From assembly GCA_032249735.1 (NCBI GenBank), contig JAVVHA010000012.1, forward strand, positions 6,346-70,345: a stretch of 64,000 bases of DNA. The letters run 5' to 3'. Position 1 is the stretch's first letter, and every line of letters starts with the position of its first letter. Made by a program: the position numbers and the translations under genes. The stretch is from Dehalococcoidia bacterium. Its GTDB lineage: Bacteria; Chloroflexota; Dehalococcoidia; SM23-28-2; HRBIN24. Below the pieces are notes generated by a model, which ran no database searches, was not told the origin of the DNA, and was given only the letters and a program-made list of their open reading frames with translations. Of this stretch, positions 427-63,330 are shown piece after piece.

Positions 427-455
427 TTGACCGGCGCAGGAGCCCATGCTAAAAT
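427..455 (+). promoter_or_regulatory. Sigma70-like promoter for the pur operon (TTGACC, 17 nt spacer, TAAAAT)
   Basis: TTGACC at 427-432 and TAAAAT at 450-455 with an exact 17-nt spacer, about 75 nt upstream of the purF start. Confidence 0.4.
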
Positions 456-2013: not shown

Positions 2014-3024
2014 ATGCCAGAGGAGATGACCTACGCCCGCGCCGGGGTGGACCTGGACGCTGCCCAGCGCCTCAAGTCGCGGTTGGCCGAGCTAGTGCGC
2101 TTCACCCGCACCCCTCAGGTCCTGGCTGATGTGGGACCCTTCGCCGGCCTCTTCCGTGTGGACGGTTTCCAAGAGCCGGTGCTGGTGGCCACCTGCGATG
2201 GCGTGGGCACCAAGGCGCGCATCGCCTCCCTCCTGGGGGCATACCAGGCCATAGGCCGCGACCTAGTGGCCCTCAACGTCAACGACCTCCTCACCAGCGG
2301 CGCCCGTCCTTTGTTCTTTCTGGACTACATCGCCTCCCACCGCCTGGGGGAGGAGGCCATACTGGCCCTGGTGGAGGGGATGGTCCAGATGTGCCAGGAG
2401 GTGGGCTGCGCCCTGCTGGGAGGGGAGACGGCCGAGATGCCCGACATCTACCGTCCTGGCGACTTCGACCTGGCCGGCTTTGCCGTGGGAGTGGTGGAGC
2501 GGCAGGAGTTGATAGATGGCTCCCGCATCGCCCCTGGCGATGTGCTCTTGGGACTCCCCTCCGAGGGCCTCCACACCAACGGCTACTCCCTGGTGCGACG
2601 CGTCTTCCGAGTGGGCATGGGCGAGGACCCAGCGGCCGAGAGGGGCCGCCTAGAGGAGTACGTGCCTGAGCTGGGACGCACCCTGGGCGAGGAGCTGCTG
2701 CGCCCCCATCGCTGCTACTACCGGGAGGTGATGGCGGTACGGGGCCTGGTGAAGGGCATCGCCCACATCACGGGCGGAGGCATCGAGGCCAACGTGGCGC
2801 GGGTGCTACCGCCAGGGGTGCGGGCGGAGATCCATTGGGGGTCATGGGAGGTGCCTCCCATCTTCCATCTGCTGCAAGCGCGGGGCCACATCCCCCCCGA
2901 GGAGATGCGCCGCGTCTTCAACATGGGCATCGGCATGGTGCTGGTGGTGAGCGAAGCGAAAGCACAGCAGGTGTTATCCTCTATCCAGGCCATCGAGCAC
3001 ATGGGATATGTTGTGGCCGAGTGA
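2014..3024 (+). CDS. purM: Phosphoribosylformylglycinamidine cyclo-ligase (AIR synthetase)
   Basis: PurM-type AIRS N- and C-domains (DAGVDLDA, GGETAEMP), starting 4 nt after the purF stop. Confidence 0.95.
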   Translation: MPEEMTYARAGVDLDAAQRLKSRLAELVRFTRTPQVLADVGPFAGLFRVDGFQEPVLVATCDGVGTKARIASLLGAYQAIGRDLVALNVNDLLTSGARPLFFLDYIASHRLGEEAILALVEGMVQMCQEVGCALLGGETAEMPDIYRPGDFDLAGFAVGVVERQELIDGSRIAPGDVLLGLPSEGLHTNGYSLVRRVFRVGMGEDPAAERGRLEEYVPELGRTLGEELLRPHRCYYREVMAVRGLVKGIAHITGGGIEANVARVLPPGVRAEIHWGSWEVPPIFHLLQARGHIPPEEMRRVFNMGIGMVLVVSEAKAQQVLSSIQAIEHMGYVVAE

Positions 3025-3101
3025 GACAGGGATGAAACCCAGCGGAAGATTGACACCTACACGGAAACGTGTAAGCTTGGGGACAAAAAGAAATAAGGCC
3101 C

Positions 3102-3581
3102 ATGGCAGTACAGGTCGTTCATGAGAGAAGGCGTCTGGGGGTCACAAGCAATCATCCTGTGCAGGCGGTATGCCAGGCTTATCGGGGGCACCCGGTTAGG
3201 AGACGCCCCATCGTCATCGACCTCTATCTCAAATCTCACAACGGAGACGAATGGTTCTTTGAGATGAAAAGCCCGAAGCGAAATGAGGATCAGGCAGTCG
3301 GGGCAGTCAGGAAGATGCTCATGGTTCATGGGGTTAGGGGTGCTGGTCCGCCTGCTGTGCAGACATATTACGCAATGGCTTACAACCCTTACGGAGACGA
3401 CCGTAGCGCCTACGCCGAGAGCATAGCGAAGAAATGCCTCGACTGCGACACCATGGTGCTCATGGGTAAAAAGTTCTGGGACCTAATAGGTGGCCCAGGC
3501 ACATACGAGGAGGTGTTGGGGCTTTACAGACAAGTCGGGCGGGAATTCAAAGATGAAGTCCGGGTGAGGTTAGTCTCATGA
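3102..3581 (+). CDS. Hypothetical protein with a PD-(D/E)xK-like motif, compositionally atypical (GC about 52-54% against about 66% in the flanks)
   Basis: 159-aa ORF. The motif VIDLY...WFFEMK fits a hydrophobic strand followed by D...ExK. The stop overlaps the purH start (ATGA). A possible own promoter at 3048-3076 (TTGACA, 16 nt, TAAGCT). Confidence 0.55.
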   Translation: MAVQVVHERRRLGVTSNHPVQAVCQAYRGHPVRRRPIVIDLYLKSHNGDEWFFEMKSPKRNEDQAVGAVRKMLMVHGVRGAGPPAVQTYYAMAYNPYGDDRSAYAESIAKKCLDCDTMVLMGKKFWDLIGGPGTYEEVLGLYRQVGREFKDEVRVRLVS

Positions 3582-5122
3582 TCGCCCTCATATCTGTGTC
3601 TGATAAGAGGGGGGTGAAGGAGCTGGCCTTGGGGCTGGCGGAGCTGGGCTTCGATATCTACTCCACCGGGGGCACCCAGCGTTACCTCCTGGAAACGGGC
3701 CTCCCCGTCCACTCCATCTCCTCCCTCACAGGGTTCCCGGAGATCCTGGATGGGCGGGTCAAGACCCTCCACCCCTTCGTGCATGCCGGCATCCTGGCCC
3801 GCCGCGAACGCCCAGAGCATATGGAGGAGCTGCAACGCAGCCAGATCCCCACCATTGACCTCGTCTGCGTCAACCTCTACCCCTTTGCTGAGACAGTGGC
3901 CCGTCCACACCGCCTGGAGGAGGCCCTGGAGCAGATAGACATTGGCGGCCCTACCCTTCTGCGGGCAGCGGCCAAAAACTTCCCCTCGGTCATCGTCCTT
4001 TCGGACCCCGACGACTATGAGCCGGTGCTGGAGATGTTGCGGGAGGGGGAGGTGCCCATGGCCGTGCGCCGCCGTCTGGCGGCCAAAGCCTTCCAGCACG
4101 TGGCCGCCTACGACTCCATCATCGCCCAGTACCTGCGCGAGGAGGAAGAGCTCTTCCCCCTCCAGCTCACCGTGGCCCTGGAGAAGGTGCAGGACCTGCG
4201 CTACGGCGAGAACCCCCACCAGAGGGCCGCCCTCTACCGCCTGCTGACCCCGGGCCCTGGCACGGGGATGGCCACGGCCCGCCAGCTCCACGGTCGGGAG
4301 CTATCCTATAACAACATCATGGATGCCGATGCCGCCTGGCAGGCGGTGTGCGATTTCCAAGAGCCCACGGTGGTCATCGTGAAGCACGCCAACCCCTGCG
4401 GCCTCGCCTCCCGTCCCCACTTGGCGGAGGCCTTCCAGCTGGCCTTCCAGGGCGACCCCATCTCCGCCTTCGGAGGCATCGTGGCCGTAAATCGCCCTGT
4501 AGACCTGGCCCTGGCCCAGGCCATAAGGGAGGCCCGCCACCCCACCAGCGGCCAGAGGCTCTTCCTGGAGGTCATTATCGCCCCCGAGTATGAGGCGGAG
4601 GCCCTGCTCCTCCTAAAGAAGAGCCCTAACCTGCGCATCCTCCAGGTGAGCTCGCCCCCTGCCGATCACCTGACCTATCGCCACGTCTCGGGGGGCCTTT
4701 TAGTCCAGGAGCCCGACCGCTACCCGGACCATCAGCTGGAGATGAAGGTGGTCACCAAAAGGGCCCCCTCACCCCAGGAGATGGAAGATCTCCTCTTCGC
4801 CTGGAAGGCCTGCAAACACGTCAAGTCCAACGCCATCGTGGTGGCCAAGGACAAGGCCCTTTTGGGCATGGGAGCTGGCCAGCCCAACCGCGTCCAGAGC
4901 GTGCGCCTGGCTACCGAGGGAGCGGGGCCGCGAGCCCAAGGGGCGGTCCTGGCATCCGACGCCTTCTTCCCCTTCCCCGACTCGGTGGAGGAGGCGGCCA
5001 GGGCAGGCATCACCGCCATCGTGCAGCCCGGGGGATCGGTGCGGGACGAGGAGGTGATCAGGGCCGCCGACCACCATGGCCTGGCCATGGTCTTCACCGG
5101 GGTCCGCCACTTCCGTCACTAG
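3578..5122 (+). CDS. purH: Bifunctional AICAR transformylase / IMP cyclohydrolase
   Basis: MGS-like N-domain (ISVSDKRG...STGGT) plus an AICARFT domain, at full length. Confidence 0.95.
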   Translation: MIALISVSDKRGVKELALGLAELGFDIYSTGGTQRYLLETGLPVHSISSLTGFPEILDGRVKTLHPFVHAGILARRERPEHMEELQRSQIPTIDLVCVNLYPFAETVARPHRLEEALEQIDIGGPTLLRAAAKNFPSVIVLSDPDDYEPVLEMLREGEVPMAVRRRLAAKAFQHVAAYDSIIAQYLREEEELFPLQLTVALEKVQDLRYGENPHQRAALYRLLTPGPGTGMATARQLHGRELSYNNIMDADAAWQAVCDFQEPTVVIVKHANPCGLASRPHLAEAFQLAFQGDPISAFGGIVAVNRPVDLALAQAIREARHPTSGQRLFLEVIIAPEYEAEALLLLKKSPNLRILQVSSPPADHLTYRHVSGGLLVQEPDRYPDHQLEMKVVTKRAPSPQEMEDLLFAWKACKHVKSNAIVVAKDKALLGMGAGQPNRVQSVRLATEGAGPRAQGAVLASDAFFPFPDSVEEAARAGITAIVQPGGSVRDEEVIRAADHHGLAMVFTGVRHFRH

Positions 5123-20033: not shown

Positions 20034-20054
20034 GTCCCAAGGCCTCCAAGTGGG

Positions 20055-20440
20055 GGGGCAGTGGGCCTATAAGCCGGGTTCTGTAGTCGCCCCCTAAGGG
20101 GCGACCGGTGGTCATCAATCTGGGCCTCCCCTTACGGAGAGGCTCAAGCGGCCTACCCGAGGGCATCGGGCCGGGCATCCCTAGGCCCCAAAAGGGGCTC
20201 GCCCTCCTATTTGGCCTTGCTCCGCGTGGGGTTTGGCCAGCCGGCAGGTCGCCCTGCCGCTGGTGGGCTCTTACCCCACCTTTTCACCCTTACCGCCGGA
20301 ATCCCGGCGGCGGTATGGTTTCTGTGCCACTTTCCGCGGGTCGCCCCGCCTGGGCGTTACCCAGCACGCTGCCCGGTGGAGCCCGGACTTTCCTCCCCCC
20401 GCTCACAGGCGGGGGGCGACCACCCGGCCCACTGTGCCCC
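20055..20440 (-). ncRNA. rnpB: RNase P RNA, bacterial type A
   Basis: Reverse complement contains GGAGGAAAGUCCGGGCUCC (P4 5' strand), AGGGUGAAAAGGUGGGGUAAGAGCCCACC, GUGGCACAGAAACCAUACC, and ACAGAACCCGGCUUAUAGG (P4 3' strand). P1 pairs CAGUGGGCC with GGCCCACUG, for a length of about 386 nt. An extended -10 TGTAAAAT at 20455-20462. Confidence 0.9.
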
Positions 20441-49571: not shown

Positions 49572-49716
49572 CTCCCCCTTATCGTCCCCCACCTCAAGGC
49601 GGGGACGGCGTTGGCACCGCTGCACGGGCTCGGCTCAGGACCTGAAGCCCTGGCCTGACCCCGGCCGGTTGCCGGGCTTCACAGGGCCGTTCCCTCCACC
49701 TCTCTGGATAAGAGGG
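49572..49716 (-). promoter_or_regulatory. SAM-I (S-box) riboswitch aptamer
   Basis: Minus-strand CUCUUAUCCAGAGAGGUGGAGGGAACGGCCCUGUGAAGCCCGGCAACC...GGUGCCAACGCCGUCC...GAUAAGGGGGAG matches the S-box consensus (UCUUAUCnAGAG.GGnGGAGGGAnnGGCCC.AUGAAnCCCnGCAACC...GGUGCnAA...GAUAAG), with P1 closed by CUCUUAUC/GAUAAGGG. Confidence 0.85.
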
Positions 49717-60724: not shown

Positions 60725-61560
60725 TTGATATCGTCAAGAGGCACTGGTGGGGCAGGTGGTAGGGTCATGGGCCGGTCCGAGCTGCCCTTGGCCAGGCTGG
60801 TGGAGGTAGGAGAAGCCTTCTGTGCCCAGCGCCCACAGCCCCGTGGGCGGGGCCGTCGCCCCACGTATAGCGAGGGGCTGGTGCTGGCCCTGTGGACGCT
60901 GGGGCAGCTGCATGGCCTCTCCTGGCGCAAGCTTTAGTCCATCTCCCGCCGGCTCCTGCCCCAGGCGCCCGAACCAGCACCATCCACTGCCGGGTGCGGC
61001 GCATACCCCAAAAGAGGTAGCAGGAGCTGGGCCACCTGCTGGCCCAGCAAGCCTTGGGCGGGGAGCGCCTGGAGCTGGTGCTGGCTGATGGCACCGGCTT
61101 TGGCTTCGGGCTGCCCTACTGGGCCTGCTGGCGGCGTGGGGAGGAGCTGAGGCGGCTGCCCTCCCACGTGAAGGGGGTAGTGGTGGTAGGGGGAGCTTCT
61201 AGGCAAGCGGGTGCTCCTGGGCCCCTCCCTGGGCCCTCCCTACAGCGACGAGCGGCGGCTGGCGGAGCGGTGGCCGCAGTGGCAAGGGAGCAAGGGTTGG
61301 GGTGAGGGCCTCTGGTTCGTGGCCGATGCCCTCTACGGCATGGGCAGGGAGGTGCTCTCCCAGGTGCGCCGCCTGGGCTGGCGGGCGGTGGTGGCGGTGG
61401 GGGAAGGGGTGTGGCGAGGGGTGAAGAGGGAGGAGAAGCAGTGGGCCCAGAGGCCCTGGCAGAAGCACCGGGACATCTACCGGCGCCGCTACCTGGTGGA
61501 GTCGTGGCTGCACAGCGCTCTCTTTTCGACCGAGTGTGATGCCCTGTTGGGCGAACCGGT
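60725..61560 (+). mobile_element. Frameshifted IS4/IS5-type DDE transposase pseudogene
   Basis: N-terminal HTH-like RGRGRRPTYSEGLVLALWTLGQLHGLSWRKL, LVLADGTGFG (first D), FVADALYGMG (second D), and YRRRYLVESWLHSALF (E region) are spread across three reading frames. Confidence 0.5.
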
Positions 61561-61606
61561 GCCCATTTCCCCTTTGCTGCTCCTAAAGGCAAGGACAGCG
61601 AGAGGT

Positions 61607-61879
61607 CTATCGGCCCATCATGCGGCCCTCCATCATGCCATCACCCATCATGCTTGCCATCATTCCTGCCATCATGTCGCGCATCATCTGGTCCATCACC
61701 GGCTGCATTTCCTTCATGTGCTCTGCGCAGAGCCAGAGCAATTCGTCCAGGGCTGCCCCTTGCGCCCTATTCAGCGAACCCGGTTGTAGAGACGGTTGAG
61801 AAGCGAGCTTCACCTGCTGAGTCGGAGATATCGTGTCTCTGGCAGCTGTTGCACGAGAGGAGCCACCGTCATCTGCCAA
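61607..61879 (-). CDS. Met-rich small protein (MxxMM repeats), possible Cu(I)-binding
   Basis: C-terminus MDQMMRDMMAGMMASMMGDGMMEGRMMGR. The same DNA on the plus strand encodes HHxxxHH repeats as a read-through tail of the transposase frame, so the coding strand is ambiguous. Confidence 0.35.
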   Translation of the reverse strand: MADDGGSSRATAARDTISPTQQVKLASQPSLQPGSLNRAQGAALDELLWLCAEHMKEMQPVMDQMMRDMMAGMMASMMGDGMMEGRMMGR

Positions 61880-61957
61880 GAAAGCCCAGGCGCCGTACGC
61901 GGCTAGCAGTAAAAGAACTACGGCCCCCTGTAACAGCCACGGCTCTTAGGGTGAATC

Positions 61958-62356
61958 TTATGTCTGGTCCTCCTCTGATGACCGCGCAGCGACTATGAGC
62001 GGCTCTTTTTCAGAACTCACGCGCACATCCGTCGGGACGCTCCCGTCGGCACTAGCCTGGACCTGTGCTCTGAGAGCCTGAAGCTCTCGCTCCAAGCGAG
62101 CCACTTTCTCCCTCAGCTTGCCCTCTTCAGCTTGGGCTACTGGCTGCTGGTGCTGCTCCGCGTGGCCGCCCATGCAGCTCATCGAAAGCCCTTTCTTCTT
62201 GCCGGTGGCGCGAGCCCATAGCCAGACGCCGACACCCATGCTGGCCATCATCAGCGGGCACGCGAGAACCGACAGCGCTAGGGGTATAAACGGCAGCAGG
62301 TTGTCCATGGCGTCCTCCACCATTGATGGGCCGAAAAGGATCTTACTCCGATACAA
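61958..62356 (-). CDS. Small membrane protein with a CPLMM...MGGH motif (resembles the DUF2933-like proteins of metal-resistance loci)
   Basis: TM helix LLPFIPLALSVLACPLMMASMGVGVWLW, then SCMGGHAEQH and a coiled coil. The family assignment is from memory only. Confidence 0.4.
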   Translation of the reverse strand: MYRSKILFGPSMVEDAMDNLLPFIPLALSVLACPLMMASMGVGVWLWARATGKKKGLSMSCMGGHAEQHQQPVAQAEEGKLREKVARLERELQALRAQVQASADGSVPTDVRVSSEKEPLIVAARSSEEDQT

Positions 62357-62393
62357 CGTGTACCGTCAACTCGTCGGGGGCTTGTCTTGCAAA

Positions 62394-63330
62394 TCAGTAG
62401 CTGCAGCGGGCGGGTGGAGGGCTAAAGGGCCAGGGTCGTAACAAGCCCATTAAAAGGCGCAGCAGCGGCAAGACCCCTGACCACGGCCTCCAGGTAGGCC
62501 CGCTTCTGGGCCATGGAGGGGAGCATCTCCTGGAGGTAGCCACCGGCGAGCCTGGTCTTAATGGCCCCGGAGACGCCCGCCACCACCCCCCGCAACTGGT
62601 AGAGGGAGGGATGGAAGTGCCTCCTGCCCAAGAGCCGCCTCTCCTCCCTCGGCCCCCCTTGAGGGGGATGTGCGCCACAAGCCCCTTCTGGGCCGCCAGT
62701 CGCCGCAGGGAGATGGCATCGAAGCCGGCGTCGGCAAGGAGTTGGCCTCGGGCCCTTACTCCTGCCAGAGCCAGGAGCCTCAGGCGGACATCCGAGGCGT
62801 AGGCAGGGCCCACCGCCACCCCCTCCAGGACCAGGAGCCTCCCTCGCCGGTAATAGCGCACCAGGCAGAGGAGGCGGCTGTGGCCCCGCACCTGCCTCTG
62901 CTCACACCCCCGCCGCCACCTGAGCCGCTGCCCCTTGCTACGGTGGGCCAGCCCCGTGTTGTCCATGAGCAGCAGCGCCTCCTCCCGGGTGAGGAGGGGC
63001 TGGAGCCGCTCCCTGAGCCTCTCCAAAAGGCCCCAAAGCTCCTCCCCTACCCCCTTGGCCAAGCGGTGGAGGGACTTTCAAGCAGGGGCAAGGACCGGTC
63101 AGGGAAGAGCTCCCGGTAAAGCGCCACGGTGTGGCGGTAAGAGGAGGGCCCGATACAGGTCCCAGCCGTAGACCCAGGGGTGGCCCCGCTGGCGCTGTGG
63201 CCCCCGCCCCCGGTAATGGGCCTCGGCCAGCTGGAGACAGGCCAGAAACGCCTGCCGTAGCCTACCACTACCTTTCGCCATGGCATACGAAGCCTATCTC
63301 CAGCCCTTTTACAAGGCAAGCCCAGCTGGT
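62394..63330 (-). mobile_element. Second DDE transposase remnant, in inverted orientation relative to the 60.7 kb copy
   Basis: LLLMDNTGLAH and LLADAGFDAISL (DDE D1 and D2). The C-terminus is truncated, and the upstream portion is broken across frames. Confidence 0.45.

What the first reader, a model, noticed from the sequence alone, without database searches (positions are those of the whole stretch)
3025..3581. Compositionally foreign PD-(D/E)xK-like ORF inserted into the purine operon and translationally coupled to purH
A 159-codon ORF at about 52-54% GC lies between purM and purH (both about 67% GC), with an ATGA overlap onto purH. It possibly has its own TTGACA-16-TAAGCT promoter. The VIDLY...WFFEMK pattern fits the PD-(D/E)xK nuclease motif. 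No methyltransferase partner is adjacent, so a solitary restriction-endonuclease-like or repair/nicking nuclease riding inside an essential biosynthetic operon is unusual. It could equally be a horizontally acquired replacement for the missing purN position.
Basis: seen in the sequence. Interest (0 to 1): 0.6.

Follow-up and report, generated by a model that had tools for sequence, protein, structure and literature searches.

The report
Dead remnant of a restriction-modification cassette
The odd low-GC gene between purM and purH is real, but it is the leftover of a restriction-modification gene pair: one deletion removed almost all of the methylase gene and the front half of the nuclease gene, so it is an ordinary decaying relic, not a working solitary nuclease.

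Summary
There is a 159-codon ORF at 3102-3581 with 54% GC against 65-67% around it, the deepest GC dip in the 64 kb. Its stop overlaps the purH start (ATGA), and it carries a D...ExK motif.

The ORF matches the TdeIII family of type II restriction endonucleases (PF09520, E=1e-30), but only profile positions 121-242 of 242. Family members are 267-282 aa.

In the relative "bacterium HR24", the same purM-purH gap holds a complete cassette: a promoter-like site, a 400-aa type II methyltransferase and a 252-aa TdeIII-type endonuclease whose stop overlaps purH.

In the window:
- Codons 1-19 are the methyltransferase's first 19 codons.
- Codons 20-159 are endonuclease codons 113-252.
- The ORF is therefore an in-frame M'-'R fusion left by a deletion of about 1.5 kb.

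It lacks helix α1 and strand β1 of the nuclease core and 11 of 28 family-invariant residues. Three of the 17 invariant residues it retains have been replaced. It evolves at about ω=1, against 0-0.47 in the flanking genes. A close relative (L091) has an even shorter copy with two frameshifts and a premature stop.

It is not a purN substitute. Interest is low.

The parts
2014..3024 (+). purM (AIR synthase), the upstream flank of the relic
   Evidence: Pfam AIRS and AIRS_C domains. GC 0.670. 78% identical to HR24 purM at the syntenic position.
3050..3077 (+). Promoter-like TTGACA-16-TAAGCT, inherited from the R-M cassette, with a weakened -10 hexamer
   Evidence: Homologous to TTGACA-16-TAGAAT directly upstream of the methyltransferase gene in HR24 (L001 4332-4359), with 37 of 45 positions identical in the BLAST segment. 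The window's -10 hexamer matches the consensus at only 3 of 6 positions and the scanner does not call it. The -35 hexamer is lost in L091.
3058..3073 (.). Palindrome TACACG-GAAA-CGTGTA between the two hexamers; function unknown
   Evidence: Present at the same place in HR24, L004, L085 and L091, and nowhere else in the window or in 85 other loci. The seventh arm pair is C/G in HR24 and T/A in L091. It was not found upstream of other TdeIII-type cassettes.
3102..3158 (+). Codons 1-19 of the ORF, which are the first 19 codons of the lost type II methyltransferase gene
   Evidence: MAVQVVHERRRLGVTSNHP against HR24 MTase VTTQVIYTRRRLGITGNPP, in the same register from the start codon. Ungapped BLOSUM62 score is 57, and 0 of 200,000 shuffles reach it. 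The best register in the whole MTase is position 2 (DNA).
3159..3581 (+). Codons 20-159 plus the stop, which are codons 113-252 of a TdeIII-family type II restriction endonuclease gene. Carries D40 (3219-3221), E54 (3261-3263) and K56 (3267-3269).
   Evidence: PF09520 E=1.2e-30, profile positions 121-242 of 242. PADLOC REase_II E=1.3e-30, positions 153-272 of 274. 78% nt and 74% aa identity to the HR24 REase 3' part, ungapped.
3566..3581 (+). purH ribosome-binding region inside the relic's last codons: GAGG at 3566-3569, purH ATG at 3578-3580, relic stop at 3579-3581
   Evidence: GAGGTTAG(T/C)CTCATGATCGC is shared by the window and L091. In HR24 the stretch reads GACATTAGCCTCATGATCGC, so GAGG itself is not present there. 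In L091 the relic ORF stops 12 nt before the ATG, but this stretch is kept.
3578..5122 (+). purH (AICAR transformylase / IMP cyclohydrolase), the downstream flank
   Evidence: Pfam MGS and AICARFT_IMPCHas domains, E=1.7e-121. GC 0.661.

Best explanation
The ORF is the relic of a TdeIII-family type II restriction-modification cassette (promoter, methyltransferase gene, endonuclease gene) that sits between purM and purH in this Chloroflexota/Dehalococcoidia lineage.

In the window's lineage, one deletion of about 1.5 kb removed the methyltransferase gene from codon 20 onward, the M-R spacer and endonuclease codons 1-112. It joined the two stumps in frame. The result is a chimeric 159-codon ORF that keeps the cassette's promoter-like site, the methyltransferase start codon and the endonuclease's 3' end, whose last codons hold the purH ribosome-binding site and overlap the purH start.

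Shown:
- the homology of both parts;
- the shared genomic position;
- the loss of the N-terminal half, including α1 and β1 of the nuclease core;
- neutral-like evolution;
- further decay in a sister lineage.

Inferred:
- The product is not an active nuclease. Losing the methylase and the nuclease front half in one step is what made losing the methylase survivable.
- The 3' end persists because purH expression signals lie in it.
- The frame is still open only because the relic is young.
For: 1. Partial family match. PF09520 is matched only over profile positions 121-242 of 242. The 120 best family members are 267-282 aa.

2. Intact cassette at the same place. In HR24 (L001) the order is purF-purM-[400-aa MTase]-[252-aa REase]-purH-GT2, and the REase stop overlaps the purH start. 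PADLOC scores are MTase_II 6.8e-88 and REase_II 2.3e-55. The same M-R pair lies next to purH in L094 and next to purM in L095. M-R pairs also occur elsewhere, in L086, L089 and L090.

3. Fusion anatomy. The upstream 45 nt are homologous to the region upstream of the HR24 MTase. Codons 1-19 are MTase codons 1-19 (0 of 200,000 shuffles reach the score). Codons 20-159 are REase codons 113-252. The deleted stretch is 1526 nt in HR24 coordinates.

4. Polarity of the change. More distant relatives have purM directly next to purH, or have purN between them, and show no M or R homologue.

5. Structure. The AlphaFold2 model of the HR24 enzyme is confident (pLDDT 90.7, pTM 0.88) and shows an α-β-β-β-α-β core: H46-68, E74-86, E124-137 carrying D133, E143-148 carrying E147 (K149 follows directly), H155-172 and E179-185. 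The best PDB matches are EcoO109I (probability 0.97-0.98), followed by Can2, Card1, NucS and RecB-type nucleases. The window ORF starts at residue 113, so α1 and β1 are absent.

6. Conserved residues. 11 of the 28 family-invariant residues lie in the deleted part. Three of the 17 retained ones are replaced: P60R, Y112C and E124K.

7. Selection.
- Window against L004: 4 non-synonymous and 1 synonymous change plus a 3-nt indel, ω about 1.1. The flanking genes give ω between 0 and 0.47 (GT2 0, purF 0.03, purH 0.07, purB 0.26, purM 0.47). Fisher p=0.03.
- Window against L091: all-site divergence of the relic is 0.171. The flanks have pS 0.18-0.24 and pN 0.012-0.036.
- Changes on the window's own branch fall 4:4:5 across codon positions, against 7:8:23 on the stem/HR24 branch.
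- Population variants hit positions that are invariant in the 17-sequence alignment A1 (K59Q, H76R, A92T) and include a 5-aa duplication.

8. Sister lineage. L091 (purF 98% and purH 96% identical) keeps only REase codons from about 179 to 252, with a -1 and a +1 frameshift and a TAG 12 nt before the purH ATG.

9. Fold of the relic alone. AlphaFold2 on the 159-aa product gives pLDDT 39.5.
Against: - The frame is open in all 16 full-length variants seen in public metagenomes. It keeps an ATG, an AAGG four bases upstream and the ATGA overlap, so it may well be translated.
- The D...ExK residues themselves are intact.
- The selection tests rest on few substitutions: 5 in the window-L004 comparison and 13 on the window branch.
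- The low-confidence AlphaFold2 run used a 17-sequence alignment, against 123 sequences for the full-length model, so the two runs are not strictly comparable.
- Only 64 kb of the genome was available. A cognate methyltransferase or a second, intact copy elsewhere cannot be excluded.
- I cannot tell whether L091's shorter remnant is a second deletion nested in the first or an independent one.
Confidence: 0.86

Rival explanations
1. The peptide sequence is irrelevant, but the ORF is kept open because ribosomes translating it deliver purH initiation through the ATGA overlap. On this view it works as an upstream coupling ORF for an essential gene.
For: The ATGA overlap is inherited and is shared by HR24, L094, the window, L004 and L085. 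The only indel between the window and L004 is 3 nt long and lies right before the stop, so the frame is preserved. All full-length population variants are open.
Against: In L091 the relic has two frameshifts and stops 12 nt before the purH ATG, yet purH is intact and 96% identical. purH has its own GAGG 8 nt upstream of the ATG. A simulation gives a 0.3-0.5 chance that the frame stays open by chance after 20-35 substitutions, which is about the number expected on the window branch.
Confidence: 0.08
2. One reading: a solitary, active PD-(D/E)xK nuclease (restriction-like, nicking or repair) riding in the purine operon without a methyltransferase.
For: Significant match to a restriction endonuclease family. 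D40, E54 and K56 are intact. NCBI names the identical protein 'TdeIII family type II restriction endonuclease'.
Against: The N-terminal 112 residues are missing, including core α1 and β1 and the invariant motifs KPFHE and FERSFSTxLGTTFEE. The N-terminus is methyltransferase-derived. ω is about 1 and invariant residues have been replaced. The sister copy is a plain pseudogene. Other apparent 'short forms' in the databases turned out to be disrupted full-length genes, not a natural short family.
Confidence: 0.04
3. A horizontally acquired functional replacement for purN at the purN position of the operon.
For: Several relatives carry purN exactly between purM and purH (L015, L021, L024, L028, L034, L048). 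No purN homologue is found in the 64-kb window.
Against: The ORF has no similarity to PurN. Its only family match is a restriction endonuclease. The nearest insert-free relatives also lack purN at this site and have purM next to purH (L005, L007, L010, L013, L037). HR24 has the full R-M cassette there and no purN.
Confidence: 0.01

Closest known systems
TdeIII-family type II restriction endonucleases (Pfam PF09520; founding member TdeIII/TDE0911 of Treponema denticola, with its methyltransferase M.TdeIII)
   Same: Clear sequence homology over the C-terminal half (107 bits against a cut-off of 27.2) and the same D...ExK residues. The ancestral cassette has the usual M-then-R gene order. TdeIII is an experimentally used restriction barrier in T. 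denticola (PMC12878829). A TdeIII-like R-M pair has moved horizontally into Helicobacter pylori (PMC3467074).
   Different: Only profile positions 121-242 of 242 are present. The N-terminus is a methyltransferase stump, no cognate methyltransferase is present, and the sequence shows relaxed constraint.
EcoO109I and other PD-(D/E)xK nucleases (structural neighbours of the full-length HR24 homologue)
   Same: The full-length relative's model has the α-β-β-β-α-β core. It finds EcoO109I (1wte, 1wtd) as best PDB match at probability 0.97-0.98, followed by Can2, Card1, NucS/EndoMS and RecB-type nucleases.
   Different: The Foldseek scores are weak (E about 6e-3, TM 0.27-0.32) and there is no sequence-level PDB match. 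The window ORF keeps only β2-β3-α2-β4 of that core.
Degenerate or remnant R-M genes (truncated, frameshifted or orphaned R genes, common in bacterial genomes)
   Same: The nuclease was inactivated together with loss of the methylase. Further decay is seen in a sister lineage (L091). Similar disrupted TdeIII-family genes occur in other metagenomes (L092 has an in-frame stop, L093 a frameshift).
   Different: Here one deletion made an in-frame M'-'R chimera that reuses the methylase gene's start. The relic is wedged inside an essential biosynthetic operon, with the next gene's initiation region inside it.

Membership tests
TdeIII-family type II restriction endonuclease (PF09520) | Significant match to the family profile | tested here: met
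   107.4 bits, E=1.2e-30, cut-off 27.2. PADLOC REase_II E=1.3e-30.
TdeIII-family type II restriction endonuclease (PF09520) | Full-length domain (about 250-280 aa), including the N-terminal invariant motifs KPFHE and FERSFSTxLGTTFEE | tested here: not met
   Only profile positions 121-242 of 242 are matched. The 120 best family members are 267-282 aa. 11 of the 28 invariant residues lie in the missing part.
TdeIII-family type II restriction endonuclease (PF09520) | Catalytic D...(D/E)xK residues | tested here: met
   D40, E54 and K56 align with D133, E147 and K149 of the HR24 enzyme. D and E are invariant and K is at least 90% conserved in 123 sequences.
PD-(D/E)xK nuclease fold | Complete α-β-β-β-α-β core | tested here: not met
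   The full-length homologue's model has the core (pLDDT 90.7) and matches PD-(D/E)xK nucleases in the PDB. The window ORF begins after α1 (H46-68) and β1 (E74-86). Its own model has pLDDT 39.5.
Type II restriction-modification system | Endonuclease gene paired with a cognate methyltransferase gene | tested here: not met
   Only 19 codons of the M gene remain. There is no other homologue of that M gene in the 64-kb window. The pair is intact in HR24, L094, L095, L086, L089 and L090. The rest of the genome could not be searched.
Type II restriction-modification system | Sequence-specific cleavage and protective methylation | not testable with these tools
   Needs enzyme assays and methylome data. 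The GGNCC observed/expected ratio of 0.86 is inconclusive.
Gene remnant / pseudogene | Truncated relative to functional homologues, relaxed selection, and disruption in close relatives | tested here: met
   Truncation. ω about 1.1 against 0-0.47 in the flanks; relic divergence 0.171, close to flank pS. Flat codon-position spectrum on the window branch. L091 copy frameshifted and shorter. The substitution counts are small.
PurN (GAR transformylase) | Homology to the formyltransferase family | tested here: not met
   No Pfam or NCBIfam match other than the endonuclease family. PurN proteins taken from relatives' purM-purH gaps give no tblastn hit in the window.

The most novel reading that the evidence does not exclude
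The interesting object may be the ancestral arrangement rather than the relic. A type II R-M cassette has lived inside the purine operon, between purM and purH, across lineages whose purH proteins are only 75-81% identical (HR24, L094, L095 and the window clade).

Its endonuclease was under purifying selection (ω 0.13 between the window and HR24 over the shared 140 codons). Its stop codon overlaps the purH start.

Embedding the downstream essential gene's initiation region in the nuclease gene could be a way for a selfish R-M module to obtain transcription and resist clean excision. The window and L091 would then show the only deletions that are tolerated, namely those that spare the last few dozen bases.
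Probability: 0.2. Interest if true: 0.45.

Novelty: new member of a known kind. Interest (0 to 1): 0.2.

Why it matters
The significance is mostly for annotation. The identical protein is deposited as 'TdeIII family type II restriction endonuclease', yet it is a chimeric, truncated relic. It should not be counted as a defence gene or as an orphan nuclease.

It is also a tidy natural example of how an addictive R-M module can be lost. One deletion takes out the methylase and disables the nuclease at once. The outer limit of the deletion appears to be set by the expression signals of the neighbouring essential gene.

The recurrent presence of this cassette inside the pur operon of a Chloroflexota clade is a small curiosity for people who study R-M mobility and persistence.

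Tried and rejected
- **PDB sequence searches.** Searches with the ORF and with the family profile found nothing meaningful.
- **NCBIfam.** It has no model for either the ORF or the full-length enzyme.
- **A natural short-form family.** The representative-library search listed several 150-165 aa hits beginning at about the same point as the window ORF. I considered a natural C-terminal-half family. The two I could inspect are disrupted full-length genes: L092 has full-length homology in one frame with an in-frame stop, and L093 has a frameshift. I rejected the idea.
- **The palindrome as a cassette operator.** TACACG-N4-CGTGTA occurs only in this purM-cassette junction clade (HR24/L001-L003, L004, L085, L091). 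No comparable inverted repeat of at least 10 nt was found upstream of the methyltransferase genes in L086 and L090; that search's length threshold was too strict to detect the 6-7-nt arms even in the window and in HR24 itself. Its role remains unexplained.
- **Known RNA families.** Rfam finds none in 2900-3700.
- **Recognition-site avoidance.** GGNCC observed/expected is 0.86 in the window and 0.79 in HR24; GANTC is 0.98 and 0.86. This is too weak to infer specificity. That TdeIII cuts GGNCC is my recollection of the Pfam/REBASE entry and was not verified here.
- **Other methyltransferases.** An N6/N4 motif scan, [DNST]PP[YFWH], of long window ORFs hit only spurious off-frame ORFs. m5C methyltransferases were not screened.
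- **Genome-collection scan.** The scan with purH did not return the window's own genome or HR24. The best hit was 64% identical, so the insert-free comparison genomes are fairly distant.

Full report
**1. Observation**

The ORF is real. It runs from 3102 to 3581 on the + strand, starts with ATG and has 159 codons plus a stop.

- It is 54.4% GC and the 77-nt spacer before it is 49.4%. purM is 67.0%, purH is 66.1% and the whole window is 65.4%.
- GC3 is 0.62, against 0.84 and 0.86 in purM and purH.
- The region is the deepest compositional dip in the 64 kb. It is the only place where 480-nt windows fall below 56% GC. The minimum of 53.8% lies 4.4 SD below the mean.
- The stop TGA (3579-3581) overlaps the purH ATG (3578-3580).
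- TTGACA (3050-3055), a 16-nt spacer and TAAGCT (3072-3077) are present. The -10 hexamer matches the consensus at only 3 of 6 positions and the consensus scanner does not report a promoter here.
- The flanking genes are purM and purH by Pfam.

**2. Family**

The product matches Pfam PF09520 (type II restriction endonuclease, TdeIII) at E=1.2e-30. The match covers only profile positions 121-242 of 242. PADLOC REase_II behaves the same way, matching positions 153-272 of 274.

The identical protein is in NCBI as a MAG Dehalococcoidia protein (MDT7944082.1) named 'TdeIII family type II restriction endonuclease'. Homologues are uniformly longer: the 120 best profile hits are 267-282 aa. In the alignment the window protein covers only the C-terminal part.

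**3. The intact state in a relative**

The closest full-length homologue is P0003 (252 aa, 74% identical), from 'bacterium HR24' (GCA_002898715.1). It lies at exactly the same genomic place:

- The order is purF - purM - methyltransferase (400 aa) - endonuclease (252 aa) - purH - GT2.
- purF is 85%, purM 78% and purH 81% identical to the window's proteins.
- PADLOC scores are MTase_II 6.8e-88 and REase_II 2.3e-55.
- The endonuclease stop overlaps the purH start in the same ATGA arrangement.
- The cassette is compositionally foreign there too: M 59% GC and R 50%, against 68-70% in the flanks.

The same M-R pair sits at the pur junction in two further metagenomic lineages:

- L094 has X-M-R-purH, again with a 4-nt overlap onto purH.
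- L095 has purM-M-R-X.

M-R pairs of this family also occur in unrelated contexts, in L086, L089 and L090. More distant Chloroflexota either have purM directly followed by purH (L005, L007, L008, L010, L013, L037, L038) or have purN between them. None has an M or R homologue there.

**4. Anatomy of the window ORF**

A base-by-base comparison with HR24 shows three parts.

- **Upstream region.** Window 3043-3087 is homologous to the stretch directly upstream of the HR24 methyltransferase gene. That stretch includes TTGACA-16-TAGAAT and an embedded palindrome.
- **Codons 1-19.** MAVQVVHERRRLGVTSNHP corresponds, in the same register from the start codon, to methyltransferase codons 1-19, VTTQVIYTRRRLGITGNPP. 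The BLOSUM62 score is 57. None of 200,000 shuffles reaches it, and it is the best register anywhere in the M or R proteins.
- **Codons 20-159.** These are endonuclease codons 113-252, ungapped, at 78% nt and 74% aa identity.

The ORF is therefore an in-frame M'-'R chimera. It was produced by deleting about 1526 nt (HR24 coordinates) that spanned most of M, the M-R spacer and the first 112 codons of R.

The direction of change is not in doubt. Two complete genes of widespread families cannot plausibly arise by inserting DNA into a fusion.

**5. What was lost**

An AlphaFold2 model of the HR24 enzyme, built on a 123-sequence alignment, is confident (pLDDT 90.7, pTM 0.88). It shows:

- H46-68 (α1, carrying the invariant FER..FEE residues);
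- E74-86 (β1);
- two helices;
- E124-137 (β2, carrying D133);
- E143-148 (β3, carrying E147; K149 follows directly);
- H155-172 (α2);
- E179-185 (β4).

This is the classical PD-(D/E)xK core. Foldseek against the PDB puts EcoO109I first (probability 0.97-0.98), followed by Can2, Card1, NucS/EndoMS and RecB-type nucleases. The scores are weak (E about 6e-3) but the hits are consistent.

The window ORF starts at residue 113. It lacks α1, β1 and 11 of the 28 residues that are invariant across 123 family members. Of the 17 invariant residues it retains, three are replaced: P60R, Y112C and E124K.

AlphaFold2 on the 159-aa product gives pLDDT 39.5. That run used a shallower alignment, so the comparison is only indicative.

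**6. Evolutionary behaviour**

*Window against L004* (same relic, 0.76% overall divergence):

- The relic has 4 non-synonymous changes, 1 synonymous change and a 3-nt indel, giving ω of about 1.1.
- The flanking genes give ω of 0 (GT2), 0.03 (purF), 0.07 (purH), 0.26 (purB) and 0.47 (purM).
- Fisher p=0.03.

*Window against L091* (purF 98%, purH 96% identical):

- The relic differs at 17.1% of all sites.
- That equals the flanks' synonymous divergence (pS 0.18-0.24) and not their non-synonymous divergence (pN 0.012-0.036).

*Branch-specific changes*, with HR24 as outgroup:

- Changes on the window branch are 8 non-synonymous and 5 synonymous, spread 4:4:5 over codon positions.
- The stem/HR24 branch shows 7:8:23, the signature of purifying selection.

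*Window against HR24* over the whole 140 codons gives ω=0.13. The nuclease was therefore functional for most of its history.

*Population variants.* Eighteen protein variants at 96% identity or more exist in public data. They carry changes at positions that are invariant in the 17-sequence alignment A1, namely K59Q, H76R and A92T, and one has a 5-residue duplication.

*L091* is an unambiguous pseudogene. Only codons from about 179 to 252 remain, with a -1 and a +1 frameshift and a TAG 12 nt before the purH ATG. The -35 hexamer is gone.

*The open frame.* A simulation shows that an open 159-codon frame survives 20-35 random substitutions with probability 0.3-0.5. The intact frame in the window needs no selective explanation.

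**7. Why the 3' end persists (inference)**

The stretch GAGGTTAG(T/C)CTCATGATCGC is kept in the window and L091, and its TTAGCCTCATGATCGC portion is also kept in HR24, where GACA replaces GAGG. It contains a GAGG 8 nt before the purH ATG. Deletions reaching further would remove purH's initiation region.

Translational coupling through the ATGA overlap is possible but not required. L091 terminates the relic upstream and still has an intact purH.

**8. Alternatives**

- **An active solitary nuclease** is very unlikely, for the reasons in sections 5 and 6.
- **A natural short form of the family** was considered, because the representative library lists several 150-165 aa hits. The two I could inspect are disrupted full-length genes.
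- **A purN replacement** is excluded at the level of homology.
- **A sequence-independent role as a coupling ORF for purH** cannot be excluded, but L091 argues against it.

**9. Verdict**

This is a real, foreign, restriction-endonuclease-derived ORF, but it is a dead one. It is the chimeric stump of a type II R-M cassette that is intact at the same site in relatives. It is ordinary in kind (R-M decay) and neat in detail: an in-frame M'-'R fusion bounded by an essential gene's start.

The mildly interesting residue is that this cassette has resided inside the pur operon across fairly divergent lineages.

Noticed in passing
window 3058-3073; L001 4340-4355; L091 4958-4973: A palindrome, TACACG-N4-CGTGTA, lies between the -35 and -10 hexamers of the cassette's promoter-like site. 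It is conserved in HR24, the window clade and L091, even though the L091 -35 hexamer is lost. The seventh arm pair changes on both sides (C/G in HR24, T/A in L091). It could be an operator or an RNA hairpin. It is absent from the other 85 loci held at that point.
   Followed up: partly
L091 4926-5224 (Ga0197143_1000065): A close relative carries a second, shorter relic of the same cassette: endonuclease codons from about 179 to 252, with two frameshifts and a premature TAG. Whether this deletion is nested in the window's deletion or independent was not resolved.
   Followed up: partly
L094 223-660; L095 2637-2888; L006 5561-5944: A conserved ORF of about 145 aa with no Pfam match (MPxYRVYY...CPLCGG(E/S)GEV) also occupies the purM-purH gap in some relatives. 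It lies before the R-M cassette in L094 and after it in L095. Other relatives have purN there. The junction appears to be a variable cargo site.
   Followed up: partly
L001 4332-4337: In HR24 the purM stop codon TGA lies inside the cassette's TTGACA -35 hexamer, so the cassette abuts purM with no spacer.
   Followed up: no
whole window and L001: GATC is strongly under-represented: observed/expected is 0.48 in the window and 0.56 in the HR24 locus. Other 4-5-mer palindromes are near 1. This hints at a past or present GATC-specific restriction system.
   Followed up: no
window 427-455 (+): The best promoter-like site in the first 8 kb is TTGACC-17-TAAAAT with an upstream TG. It lies just before purF (529) and is a likely operon promoter for purF-purM-relic-purH.
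   Followed up: no
window 20054-20435 (-) and 49576-49714 (-): Bacterial RNase P RNA class A (294 bits) and a SAM riboswitch (74 bits) were found by the Rfam gathering-threshold scan.
   Followed up: no
window about 61500-62500: This is the second-lowest GC stretch of the window (0.597 per 1 kb). It holds small ORFs, including a Met-rich one (61607-61879, - strand) and a 132-aa membrane/coiled-coil-like ORF (61958-62356, - strand).
   Followed up: no
L092 937-1734; L093 104-646: Other TdeIII-family endonuclease genes in metagenomes are also disrupted, one by an in-frame stop and one by a frameshift. Gene callers report them as 'proteins' of about 156 aa, which inflates apparent short forms in protein databases.
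   Followed up: yes
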